A stretch of DNA of 64,000 nt, taken from NCBI RefSeq assembly GCF_009914755.1, contig NC_060933.1, one strand, 5' to 3'. This stretch comes from the human T2T-CHM13v2.0 reference genome, Homo sapiens. The translations under genes were made by a program, and so were the position numbers. The notes under the pieces are model-generated. The model was not told the DNA's origin. It made no database searches and worked only from the letters and a program-made list of their open reading frames with translations. Position 1 is the stretch's first letter. Each line of letters opens with the position of its first letter. Below are positions 3,618-47,868 of this stretch, piece after piece.

Positions 3618-3784
3618 TATACATATATATTTTTTCTCCCATATATATGTGGTGTGTATTTATATACCTATATGTGTGTGTGTGTGTGTATATATACCCC
3701 ATCTCATATATATACACACACACACGCGCACACACACAAATGGCTGTGTGTGTGTGTGTATGTATATATATATGTGTGTGTGTG

Positions 3785-3840
<56 letters not shown>
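3618..3840. repeat. Compound (TA)/(TG)/(CA) microsatellite ending in (AT)27 at 3787-3840, at the tail of an Alu
   Basis: Read directly. Confidence 0.97.

Positions 3841-3844
<4 letters not shown>

Positions 3845-17445: not shown

Positions 17446-17451
<6 letters not shown>

Positions 17452-17492
<41 letters not shown>
17452..17492. repeat. (TA)20 microsatellite
   Basis: Read directly. Confidence 0.97.
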
Positions 17493-17501
<9 letters not shown>

Positions 17502-17604
17502 AACTTGGTGCTTTATAAATACTGTGTTTTTTAAGGTAGACTTTGATTGCCATTAGCAAGAATATATTTTATTTAGACTTATTTATGTTGTATTGTATTT
17601 ACCT

Positions 17605-18014: not shown

Positions 18015-18299
18015 GGTCAGGTGTGGTGGCTCACGCCTGTAATCTCAACGCTTTGGGAGACCAAGGTGGGTGGATCACTTGAGGCCAGGAGTTCGAGACC
18101 AGCTTGGCCAATATGGTGAAACCCTGTCTCTACCAAAAACACAAAAATTAGCTGGGCATGGGCACACACCTGTAGTCTCAGCTCTCAGGAGGCTGAGGCA
18201 TGAGAATCACTTGAACCCAGGTGGTGGAGGTTGCACTGAGCCGAGATTGTTCTACAACCTGGATGATGGAGCAAGACTCTGTCTCTTCAAAAAAAAAAA
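18015..18299 (+). mobile_element. Alu (AluS-like)
   Basis: Dimer with A-tail; TSD approximately aagt(g/c)attttt. Confidence 0.9.
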
Positions 18300-18349
18300 G
18301 ACAAGTCATTTTTTGTTTGTTGGCTTATTTACTTTTTACTCTTTTTTAA

Positions 18350-19173
<824 letters not shown>

Positions 19174-24156: not shown

Positions 24157-24547
<391 letters not shown>

Positions 24548-24933
24548 TCATTCTTTTTTATGGCTGGATAGTATTCCATTATGTGTCTGTATGTGCGTGT
24601 ATATGTATGTATATACACACACACATCATATACTCTTTCTTTTATTTTTTTAGAGACAGTGTGTTGCTGTGTTGCTCAGGATAGCCTAGAATTCCTGGGC
24701 TCAAACAATCCTCCTGCCTCAGCCTCCTAAATAGCTAGGACTTTAGGTATGGTAGCATCTGGCTTATACCACATTTTCTTTATCCATTTATCCATTGCTA
24801 GACACTTAGGTTGATTCTATATCTTGGTTATTGTGAATAATACTCTAGTTTATATGACAGTGCAGGTATCCCTTTGATATACTGATTTTCTTTCCTTTGG
24901 ATAAATATCTGTAGTGGGATTGCTGGATCATAT

Positions 24934-27590: not shown

Positions 27591-28817
27591 AGTACAATTT
27601 CTTTTAAAATTAAGGTCAATTGTCTCAGACTCTGCTGCTGGTTTATCAACTACATTTATGTAATATCCTAAATCCTTTATTGTCATTTTATAAGGAACTC
27701 CTCAAAGTCATCCACGAGGATTGGAATCAACTTCTTCCAAATTCCTGTGACATATTGACTTACTCCCATGTATCACAAGTGTTTCTAATGGCACCTGGAA
27801 TGGTGAATTCTTTGCAGAAGTTGTCAATATAATTTGCCCAGATCCATCAGAGGAATCACCATCTATGGCAGCTATAGCCTTATGAAATGTATTTATTAAA
27901 TGATAAGACTTGAAAGTAAAAATTACTTCTTGATCCATGGGCTACAGAATGGATGTTGTGTTACCAGGCTTGAAAACAACATTAATCTCCTTATACATCT
28001 CAGAGCTCTTGGGTGACCAAGTACATTGTCAATGAACAATAATGTTTTGAAAGGAATCTTTTTGTGAGTAGTAAGTCTCAACAGTGGGCTTAAAATATTC
28101 AGTTAAACATTCTGTAAAGAGATGAGCTGTCATCCGTATGAGCTGTTCCAACTTGTCATCCAAGTTGAAGCCAGTGCTCATTTACCATTCAAAAATCCTG
28201 TGGCCCTTAAGAATTATGCTTTATCAACTCTGCCTGTGCCCTGGTAGCTGGTAATGTAGCTTGTCAGTTTAAGTTGAAGCCAATGCTCATTTACCATTCA
28301 AAAAATCCTAGGGCCCTTAAGAATTATTCTATATCTACTCTCCCTCTGCTCTATAAATGCTCTATAAATGCATAGGCAGAGTAGATAAAGCATAATTCTT
28401 AAGGGCCCTAGGATTTTTTCAATGGCAAATGAGCATTGGCTTCAACTTAAAGTCACAAGCCACATTAGCCCCTAACAAGAGAGTCAGCCTGTCTTTGAAG
28501 CCTTAAAGCCAGGCATTGACTTCTCCCCTCTAGCTGTAAAAGTCCTAGGTGACATTTTGCAACAAAAGACTGTTTAGTCTTCACTGAAAATCTGTTGTTT
28601 AGTGTAGCTACCTGCATCGGTGATTTTAGCTAGATCTGCGGATAACTTGCTACAGCTTCTACATCAGCATTTGCTGTTTGGCCTTACACTTTTGTGTTAT
28701 GCAGAAGGCTTTTTTCCTTGAACTTCATAAACCAATCTCTCCTAGCTTTCACCTTTTCTTCTGCAGCTTCCTCACCTCTCTCAGCCTTCATCAAATTAAA
28801 GAGAGTTAGGGCCTTGG

Positions 28818-47453: not shown

Positions 47454-47554
47454 ACTATTAATACTTGGCCATACAGCAGTATACTTGGAGAATAAAATTC
47501 TATTCAAGAATTTTATTCTCCAAGTATACTGCTGTATGGCCAAGTATTAATAGT
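47454..47554. repeat. Perfect inverted repeat: 48-bp arms, 5-nt loop
   Basis: 47454-47501 is the exact reverse complement of 47507-47554; loop ATTCA. Confidence 0.97.

Positions 47555-47634: not shown

Positions 47635-47868
<234 letters not shown>

What the first reader, a model, noticed from the sequence alone, without database searches (positions are those of the whole stretch)
47454..47554. Perfect 48-bp-arm palindrome 111 nt upstream of a frame-critical exon
Seen: actattaatacttggccatacagcagtatacttggagaataaaattct-ATTCA-exact reverse complement, with zero mismatches, in sequence I cannot assign to a repeat. Each arm has an internal repeat (atacttgg twice). It ends 111 nt before the acceptor of the 107-nt exon, whose skipping would frameshift, at the end of a 26.4-kb intron. 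Established: long perfect short-loop palindromes are rare and unstable, form cruciforms, and as RNA are potential Drosha/Dicer/ADAR substrates. Inference: either a recent template-switch event (the proposed route to de novo miRNA hairpins) or arms kept identical by conversion or selection; it could influence splicing.
Basis: partly seen in the sequence, partly recalled or inferred. Interest (0 to 1): 0.8.

Follow-up and report, generated by a model that had tools for sequence, protein, structure and literature searches.

The report
Template-switch palindrome in a CCDC171 intron
The perfect 48-base inverted duplication in this human intron is real, but it is most likely a young one-step copying error of a well-described kind that appears to be listed already in a published catalogue, and nothing yet shows that it does anything.

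Summary
The arms are 47454-47501 and 47507-47554: 48 nt, 100% complementary, 5-nt spacer ATTCA, ending 111 nt before the 107-nt exon.

It is not chance and not a transposon. The arm occurs only as these two arms in the 3.1-Gb assembly at up to 3 mismatches, and both flanks are single-copy. The same search run on a different palindrome in the window returned 81 matches.

Complementarity stops abruptly at the arm ends, which fits a single event.

Walker et al. 2021 (PMC7954356, S2 Data) list event 3762 at GRCh38 chr9:15721611-15721665. It is gold-standard, human carries the descendant state, and the type is 3-2-1-4. That fits this locus: left arm as template, right arm as the new inverted copy, made after the gorilla split. 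I ran no liftover, so the match rests on position, size and elimination.

Zero mismatches is expected at that age (P about 0.6-0.8). Conversion or selection is not needed.

No Rfam family reaches its threshold. The stem is too long and the loop too short for an optimal Drosha substrate. The core 3' splice signals lie outside the hairpin. Function is untested and the prior is low (0.9%).

The parts
47454..47501 (.). Left arm (48 nt). Inferred to be the pre-existing template, the stretch from point 3 to point 2 of the four-point template-switch model.
   Evidence: Searches give the arm. The role follows from event type 3-2-1-4, forward orientation, human descendant, in PMC7954356 S2 Data. The retained left part folded alone shows no unusual structure (DNA fold z = +0.48).
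47502..47506 (.). Spacer ATTCA, the hairpin loop. It is the stretch between switch points 2 and 1.
   Evidence: The exact position of point 1 is not known, because the published alignment (S1 Data) could not be read.
47507..47554 (.). Right arm (48 nt). Inferred to be the new inverted copy written in one step by the template switch.
   Evidence: It is the exact reverse complement of the left arm. The published mutation cluster is 54 nt long and, for a 3-2-1-4 event in forward orientation, lies to the right of its template. Complementarity ends sharply at 47454 and 47554: flank pairing is no better than with shuffled or random flanks (fraction at least as good 0.37-0.80).
47666..47772 (+). Context only: the 107-nt CCDC171 coding exon, whose acceptor lies 111 nt downstream of the palindrome.
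   Evidence: Hub annotation. One search shows the AG|G acceptor and the GT donor. One search shows a yUnAy motif with its A at 47647 (-19) and 83% pyrimidines in 47641-47663. Both lie outside the hairpin.

Best explanation
The palindrome is the footprint of one short-range template-switch mutation of type 3-2-1-4.

While this intron was being copied, the growing strand left its template just past the ATTCA. It re-primed on the complementary sequence of the stretch it had just passed, either by folding back on itself or by using the other strand at the fork. It copied 48 nt backwards and then returned. That wrote an exact inverted copy (now 47507-47554) next to its source (47454-47501).

The event happened in the lineage to human after the split from gorilla, and it is present in two independent human assemblies. 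The arms are identical because the event is young.

The hairpin is transcribed as part of the CCDC171 pre-mRNA. It is most likely a neutral passenger: raw material of the kind from which a small minority of new miRNA genes arise, not a working element.

Shown: the anatomy, single-copy status, sharp ends and the absence of a family match. Taken from print: direction and lineage. Inferred: that event 3762 is this locus, and that the hairpin is neutral.
For: 1. The inverted copy is exact, adjacent to its source and has sharp ends. Pairing beyond the arms is no better than with shuffled or random flanks (1,500 trials per null and flank length; fraction at least as good 0.37-0.80).

2. It is single-copy in the 3.117-Gb assembly. 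There is 1 forward and 1 reverse hit at up to 3 mismatches, and 0/0 for the reversed-pattern control. BLAST-type searches of the palindrome and its flanks gave self-hits only. As a positive control, another palindrome at 28150-28490 gave 81 matches at 81-92% identity besides the self-hit, from 3,495 first-look candidates of which 40 were scored.

3. PMC7954356 S2 Data lists event 3762: chr9 15721611-15721665 (GRCh38.p12), forward, gold_standard, human = descendant, eventType 3214. The paper states that 3-2-1-4 and 1-4-3-2 are the majority patterns and generate single inverted repeats, and that point 2 lying before point 1 allows intra-strand switching.

4. Within the window this is the only inverted repeat of at least 30 nt within 400 nt that is more than 92% complementary (1 of 11 pairs). 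It is therefore the only candidate for a 54-nt cluster of that type.

5. Zero mismatches is expected at this age: P = 0.60-0.78 for 6.5-9 Myr, with a mean wait of 17-26 Myr to the first arm substitution and no CpG in the arms.

6. The kind is common. There are 4,017 significant events in human, chimpanzee and gorilla. [quoted passage not shown]

7. The retained left part alone is unstructured (z = +0.48), so the hairpin arose from ordinary sequence.
Against: I made no alignment to any ape genome and ran no liftover.

The link to event 3762 rests on three things: nominal coordinates (a T2T-minus-GRCh38 offset of about 11.9 kb, against about 11.4 kb from a GRCh38 gene start that I recall, not from any call), the size and type of the event, and elimination within the window. 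The published alignments (S1 Data) were too large to read.

S2 Data does not say whether the event is human-only, shared with chimpanzee or affected by incomplete lineage sorting.

The copied stretch (48 nt) is far above the median for the class (12, MAD 4.5, max 128).

The final sequence shows no microhomology that would hold the primer end across a 5-nt loop. Some bases of the right arm may therefore have pre-existed.

The event was not found in the supplements of Loytynoja and Goldman 2017 (4 files searched, 1 not searchable).

Neutrality is an inference. No small-RNA, editing, CLIP or splicing data could be consulted.
Confidence: 0.83

Rival explanations
1. The origin is the same, but the hairpin now works at the RNA level. 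It could be an unannotated young miRNA or endo-siRNA precursor, or an ADAR-edited duplex that affects use of the acceptor 111 nt downstream.
For: [quoted passage not shown] The hairpin dominates the fold of a 341-nt context, in both the minimum-energy and centroid structures. Two annotated human miRNA loci have the same near-palindrome, small-loop build. mir-4659 has 39-nt arms, 90% complementary, with a 5-nt spacer. mir-4798 has a 4-nt loop. These two families are also the top sub-threshold Rfam hits.
Against: 0 of 28 Rfam matches reach their gathering score. The best is 54.9 bits against 92, both strands score alike, and the alignments match mostly paired columns, so the score looks structural. 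No family reaches gathering anywhere in the window, and the hub annotation has no MIR gene here. The stem is 48-51 bp and the loop 5 nt, against a preferred 35-bp stem and loop of at least 10 nt. The stem is still perfect, whereas 105 of 111 derived miRNA loci have gained later mutations. The base rate is 57 of 6,054, or 0.9%. The branch-point-like motif at -19 and the pyrimidine tract lie outside the hairpin. The hub annotation shows no alternative exon nearby.
Confidence: 0.06
2. The inverted copy was written during double-strand-break repair rather than at a replication fork. In this reading a resected 3' end snapped back on itself and was extended, as in polymerase-theta-type templated insertion.
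For: The product, an inverted copy directly beside its source, is the same. The four-point model used in the catalogue is explicitly mechanism-agnostic. That snap-back synthesis makes templated inverted insertions is recalled knowledge and comes from no call.
Against: Nothing in the sequence discriminates between the two. By my recollection, 48 nt is long for such repair insertions. The catalogue and later papers treat the class as replication-related.
Confidence: 0.08
3. It is a palindromic miniature transposon, or two inverted copies of a repeat.
For: Its shape resembles short palindromic DNA-transposon relics. One such multi-copy element sits in the same window at 28150-28490.
Against: The arm, the palindrome and both flanks are single-copy in 3.117 Gb. 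The same tool found 81 matches for the control element. There is no target-site duplication: the flanks are ...AAAG and TTCA.... Arms that are 100% identical would not fit a family too old to leave recognisable copies.
Confidence: 0.01
4. It is an old inverted repeat whose arms are kept identical by repeated conversion or purifying selection, or it is an assembly artefact.
For: Template switching can re-perfect existing hairpins. I saw this only in the abstract of PMC8794818 in the listing.
Against: There is no decayed extension beyond the arms. The published call has human in the descendant state relative to another great ape. The same state appears in GRCh38 (the catalogue) and in T2T-CHM13 (this window), which are two independent assemblies. 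Perfect identity needs no maintenance at this age.
Confidence: 0.02

Closest known systems
Short-range template-switch mutations of great apes under the four-point model, type 3-2-1-4 (Walker, Scally, De Maio and Goldman 2021, PMC7954356; model of Loytynoja and Goldman 2017, PMC5453318)
   Same: It is a one-step inverted copy placed next to its template, giving a perfect inverted repeat in the descendant. It is intronic. Human carries the descendant state. Event 3762 of their S2 Data is most likely this locus.
   Different: It is much longer than typical: 48 nt copied, against a median of 12, MAD 4.5 and maximum 128. The paper does not discuss this locus in the passages I read. It appears only as a row in the supplement.
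Template-switch-generated hairpins and de novo miRNA genes (Monttinen, Frilander and Loytynoja 2023, PMC10710096); annotated palindromic loci mir-4659 (RF03912) and mir-4798 (RF03244)
   Same: [quoted passage not shown]
   Different: It is not annotated as a miRNA and is not in that paper's Dataset S1 (0 occurrences of CCDC171, chr9 or C9orf93). Its stem is longer (48 against about 39 bp) and still perfect (100% against 90%). There is no sequence-family match (54.9 and 54.2 bits against gathering scores of 92 and 75). No expression evidence could be checked.
Palindromic miniature DNA-transposon relics, such as the multi-copy element at window 28150-28490. The named human example, MADE1/mir-548, is recalled and comes from no call.
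   Same: It is a short hairpin-forming palindrome in an intron.
   Different: Those are multi-copy (81 matches scored) with diverged arms (88%). This one is single-copy with 100% identical arms and no target-site duplication.
Long AT-rich palindromes that break chromosomes (PATRRs), and short inverted repeats as mutation hotspots. PMC5737083 and PMC7999016 were seen only as titles and abstracts in the listing; PATRR sizes are recalled.
   Same: It is a cruciform-capable perfect palindrome with a very short spacer and an AT-rich centre (arm GC content 31%).
   Different: The arms are 48 nt, not several hundred. No instability is documented here. The same allele is present in two assemblies.

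Membership tests
Short-range template-switch mutation (four-point model, type 3-2-1-4) | The descendant carries an exact reverse-complement copy close to its template. | tested here: met
   48-nt arms, 100% complementary, 5 nt apart.
Short-range template-switch mutation (four-point model, type 3-2-1-4) | The outgroup or ancestral sequence has the template but lacks the copy, so that the change appears as one mutation cluster. | tested here: met
   Met by look-up only, not by an alignment of my own. PMC7954356 S2 Data lists event 3762: chr9 15721611-15721665 GRCh38, gold_standard, human descendant, type 3214. That this row is the present locus rests on coordinates, cluster size (54 nt) and elimination within the window. 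No liftover was run, and the S1 Data alignments were unreadable.
Short-range template-switch mutation (four-point model, type 3-2-1-4) | A single event: sharp ends with no decayed repeat beyond them. | tested here: met
   The energy gain from the flanks is no better than with shuffled flanks or random intron flanks, at 10, 14 and 20 nt (fractions 0.37-0.80).
Short-range template-switch mutation (four-point model, type 3-2-1-4) | Not explained by a repeat family. | tested here: met
   Single-copy in 3.117 Gb, with a positive control.
Canonical microRNA precursor | Match to a curated miRNA family at its gathering score. | tested here: not met
   0 of 28 matches at E up to 10 reach gathering. There are 0 matches at gathering in the whole window.
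Canonical microRNA precursor | A stem of about 35 bp with an unstructured apical loop of 10 nt or more. | tested here: not met
   The stem is 48 bp perfect, or 51 bp with one G-U pair and two further pairs after a bulge. The loop is 5 nt. The criterion is as quoted in the introduction of PMC10710096. Annotated mir-4659 and mir-4798 also have 4-5-nt loops, so this feature does not exclude processing.
Canonical microRNA precursor | Defined stacks of about 22-nt reads, or Drosha/Dicer dependence. | not testable with these tools
   No small-RNA or CLIP data are available here. The hub annotation lists no MIR gene in the window.
Palindromic miniature transposon (MITE) | Many dispersed copies. | tested here: not met
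   Self-hits only. The control element gave 81 matches.
Palindromic miniature transposon (MITE) | A target-site duplication flanking the terminal inverted repeats. | tested here: not met
   The flanks ...TTTAGAAAG and TTCATAACG... share no duplication (read by eye).

The most novel reading that the evidence does not exclude
A hairpin born in one step in the human, or human-chimpanzee, lineage is already being used. In this reading, the 48-bp perfect duplex in the CCDC171 pre-mRNA is cut into small RNAs, making it a nascent and still unannotated miRNA or endo-siRNA gene caught before any 'maturing' mismatch has arisen. Alternatively it is hyper-edited by ADAR, and that alters the kinetics or fidelity of splicing of the frame-critical 107-nt exon 111 nt downstream.
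Probability: 0.05. Interest if true: 0.5.

Novelty: already known. Interest (0 to 1): 0.2.

Why it matters
The value here is as a worked example, not a discovery. A striking perfect palindrome beside a coding exon turns out to be an unusually long product of short-range template switching, a mutation process known to create thousands of hairpins in ape genomes.

Two practical lessons follow. First, perfect identity of 2 x 48 nt is expected for tens of millions of years, so it is not evidence of conversion or selection. Second, single-copy status together with sharp ends separates such events from transposon palindromes.

If the hairpin were shown to yield small RNAs, it would be a very young, still perfect stage of miRNA birth. 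That stage is useful for studying how such genes start, but the base rate is below 1%.

Tried and rejected
1. Imperfect extension of the palindrome into the flanks. By eye, GTT..GA.. on the left seemed to pair with ..TC..AAC on the right, which suggested an older quasi-palindrome that had been re-perfected. I rejected this: the flank energy gain is ordinary.

2. Rfam. The 'evalue' scan gave 28 sub-threshold hairpin matches on both strands, to families from unrelated organisms, including bacterial sRNAs. These are structural look-alikes, not homology. The gathering scan of the whole window gave nothing.

4. A search for the locus in Monttinen 2023 Dataset S1 found nothing. In the Loytynoja and Goldman 2017 supplements it found nothing in the 4 files searched, and 1 file was not searchable. 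For Loytynoja 2022 (PMC9435742) the only file was not searchable. Whether the palindrome is polymorphic in humans therefore stays open.

5. I tried to calibrate GRCh38 against T2T coordinates from print, by searching papers that hold CCDC171 or C9orf93 together with numbers beginning 157217 or 157218. None of the 5 papers that held two of the terms paired a gene name with such a number. The search with CCDC171, palindrom, inverted repeat and hairpin was badly set (any 2 of 4 terms) and listed no CCDC171 paper among the 15 shown.

6. A pre-existing hairpin in the retained left part as a trigger. It is not unusual (z = +0.48). Only a weak 5-bp mini-hairpin lies just before the spacer.

7. Internal features of the arm. 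The 8-mer direct repeat and the two 8-nt mini-palindromes are mildly unusual (P 0.015-0.07 and 0.02-0.03). They were picked post hoc and belong to the ancestral arm, so I draw nothing from them.

8. A genome-wide count of comparable perfect palindromes could not be made. The genome is too large to be laid in the Python box, and the passages I read in PMC13155455 gave no human count by arm length.

Full report
**1. The observation**

The arms are 47454-47501 and 47507-47554, 48 nt each and exact reverse complements, separated by ATTCA. ATACTTGG occurs at 47461 and 47481. With the hub's exon table, the palindrome ends 111 nt before the acceptor of the 107-nt exon (47666-47772; 107 mod 3 = 2), at the end of a 26,410-nt intron.

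It cannot be chance. No match to the arm occurred in 100 dinucleotide shuffles of the window. The RNA fold is -81.5 kcal/mol against -20.1 +/- 3.6 for shuffles (z = -17, 0 of 200 as good). The DNA fold is -54.9 kcal/mol (z = -18.6). The minus strand folds equally well (-81.4).

Among 73 short-spacer inverted repeats in the window, 24 of the 25 longest shown are microsatellite tracts. This is the only complex one.

**2. It is not a repeat element**

In the 3.117-Gb assembly that holds the window, the arm occurs once forward and once reverse at up to 3 mismatches. Those hits are the two arms. The reversed-pattern control gave none.

BLAST-type searches with the 101-nt palindrome, a 221-nt region and the 554-nt and 546-nt flanks returned only themselves, even at E up to 10. 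That tool warns that its first look can miss things, so I ran a positive control. A different, imperfect palindrome in the same window (28150-28490; 108-nt arms, 88%) returned 81 matches at 81-92% identity besides the self-hit, on many chromosomes, from 3,495 first-look candidates of which 40 were scored. The search therefore does see palindromic interspersed repeats, and this locus is not one. There is also no target-site duplication.

**3. The anatomy points to one event**

By eye, complementarity seemed to continue imperfectly into the flanks. That would have suggested an older quasi-palindrome. It does not hold. The extra folding energy contributed by 10, 14 or 20 nt of real flanks is matched or beaten by 37-80% of shuffled flanks or random flanks from the same intron (1,500 trials each). 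The repeat ends abruptly at 48 nt. The retained left part on its own has no unusual structure (z = +0.48). Both points fit a single copying event in ordinary sequence.

**4. It appears to be already catalogued**

Walker, Scally, De Maio and Goldman 2021 (PMC7954356) realigned human, chimpanzee and gorilla with a pair-HMM of the 'four-point' template-switch model. I read passages of the main text, the header and first part of S2 Data, and searched S2 and S3 Data.

They report 4,017 significant events, of which 1,503 are 'gold standard'. In the gold-standard set the copied fragment has a median length of 12 nt, MAD 4.5 and maximum 128. 65% of events lengthen the sequence.

S2 Data contains event 3762: chr9 15721611-15721665 (GRCh38.p12), forward, gold_standard, human = descendant, eventType 3214. 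The file header defines these fields. The text says that 3-2-1-4 and its mirror 1-4-3-2 are the majority patterns and generate single inverted repeats. It also says that point 2 lying before point 1 allows an intra-strand fold-back as well as an inter-strand switch.

Read onto this locus, points 3 to 2 are the left arm (the template), points 2 to 1 are the spacer, and the new fragment is the right arm. The mirror description changes the assumed direction of replication but not which arm is new.

**5. How sure is the identification**

I could not run a liftover, and the alignments (S1 Data) were too large to read.

The case for identity rests on four points:
- The row lies at nominal position 15.7216 Mb, and the palindrome at T2T 15.7335 Mb on the same chromosome arm. 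That implies an offset of about 11.9 kb. A GRCh38 gene start that I recall, from no call, gives about 11.4 kb at the gene's 5' end.
- The cluster is 54 nt, far out in the tail of the class, and matches a 48-nt new arm plus a few bases.
- The type is the one that yields a hairpin with the copy to the right of its source.
- In the whole 64-kb window, only 1 of 11 inverted repeats of at least 30 nt within 400 nt exceeds 92% complementarity, and it is this one.

I put the identification at about 0.9. If it holds, the palindrome is present in both GRCh38 and CHM13, which disposes of an assembly artefact. It also arose after the gorilla split, although S2 Data does not say whether chimpanzee shares it.

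**6. Why the arms are perfect**

The arms have 96 bases and no CpG. With 0.4-0.6e-9 substitutions per site per year (recalled rates), the mean wait for the first arm substitution is 17-26 Myr. The chance of none is 0.69-0.78 after 6.5 Myr and 0.60-0.71 after 9 Myr. Conversion or selection is not needed.

**7. Function**

No Rfam family reaches its gathering score here, or anywhere in the window. The 28 weak matches score alike on both strands, come from unrelated organisms and match mostly paired columns, so they reflect structure and not homology.

The two best, mir-4659 and mir-4798, are instructive. Their loci in this genome are near-palindromes with 5-nt and 4-nt loops (39-nt arms at 90% for mir-4659). 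This architecture can therefore end up annotated as a miRNA.

Monttinen, Frilander and Loytynoja 2023 (PMC10710096; I read the abstract, sections 8 and 9, other passages, and searched Dataset S1) give the base rates:
- 53,666 putative template switches in genic regions on the way to human.
- 31,007 of these form new stems.
- 6,054 are miRNA-sized.
- 57 of the 6,054 (0.9%) are annotated as miRNAs.

Of their 111 derived miRNA loci, 105 have acquired later mutations. This locus is not in their Dataset S1.

Here the stem is 48-51 bp and the loop 5 nt, against a stated preference for 35 bp and at least 10 nt. The stem is still perfect.

For splicing, a yUnAy motif with its A at -19 and an 83%-pyrimidine tract lie well downstream of the hairpin. 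The hairpin folds on itself in a 341-nt context. The hub annotation shows no alternative exon nearby.

None of this excludes editing or low-level dicing, which I could not test. I give function about 0.05.

**8. Verdict**

The template-switch reading is supported and is apparently already in print as a catalogue row. The conversion or selection alternative is unnecessary, and the functional suggestions are unsupported.

It is an unusually long member of a common, well-described class, so interest is low. What remains open is the exact branch (human-only or shared with chimpanzee), whether the site is polymorphic (the relevant supplements could not be searched), and whether any small RNA or editing comes from it.

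Noticed in passing
window 28150-28490: A second, imperfect palindrome: 108-nt arms, 88% complementary, 20 nt apart, with further nested inverted pairs. It is a multi-copy interspersed element. The search returned 81 matches at 81-92% identity besides the self-hit, on many chromosomes, and 3,495 first-look candidates. It looks like a miniature DNA-transposon relic. I could not name the family because no repeat library is available here.
   Followed up: partly
window 18188-19070 and 24312-24747: Inverted pairs of what look like Alu elements. The recognition is from memory of the Alu sequence and comes from no call. Arms reach 168 nt at 85% complementarity, 283 nt apart. As pre-mRNA these would form much longer duplexes than the finding and are the more usual ADAR substrates in this gene.
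   Followed up: no
window 3673-3842 and 17449-17503: (TG)n/(AT)n and (AT)n microsatellites account for 24 of the 25 longest short-spacer 'palindromes' shown for the window, with perfect AT arms of up to 29 nt.
   Followed up: no
window 47456-47501 (left arm): The ancestral arm itself holds two 8-nt perfect mini-palindromes (at 47456 and 47478), a 5-bp/3-nt mini-hairpin just before the spacer (47489-47501) and the 8-mer direct repeat. Jointly these are mildly unusual (P about 0.02-0.07), but they were picked post hoc. They might have favoured polymerase stalling.
   Followed up: partly
L005:1496-1578 (G000 C8:6500242-6500314): The annotated mir-4659 locus has the same build as the finding: a near-perfect palindrome with 39-nt arms, 90% complementary, and a 5-nt spacer. 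It scores almost equally on both strands (99 and 98.5 bits). It looks like an older, mismatch-bearing counterpart.
   Followed up: partly
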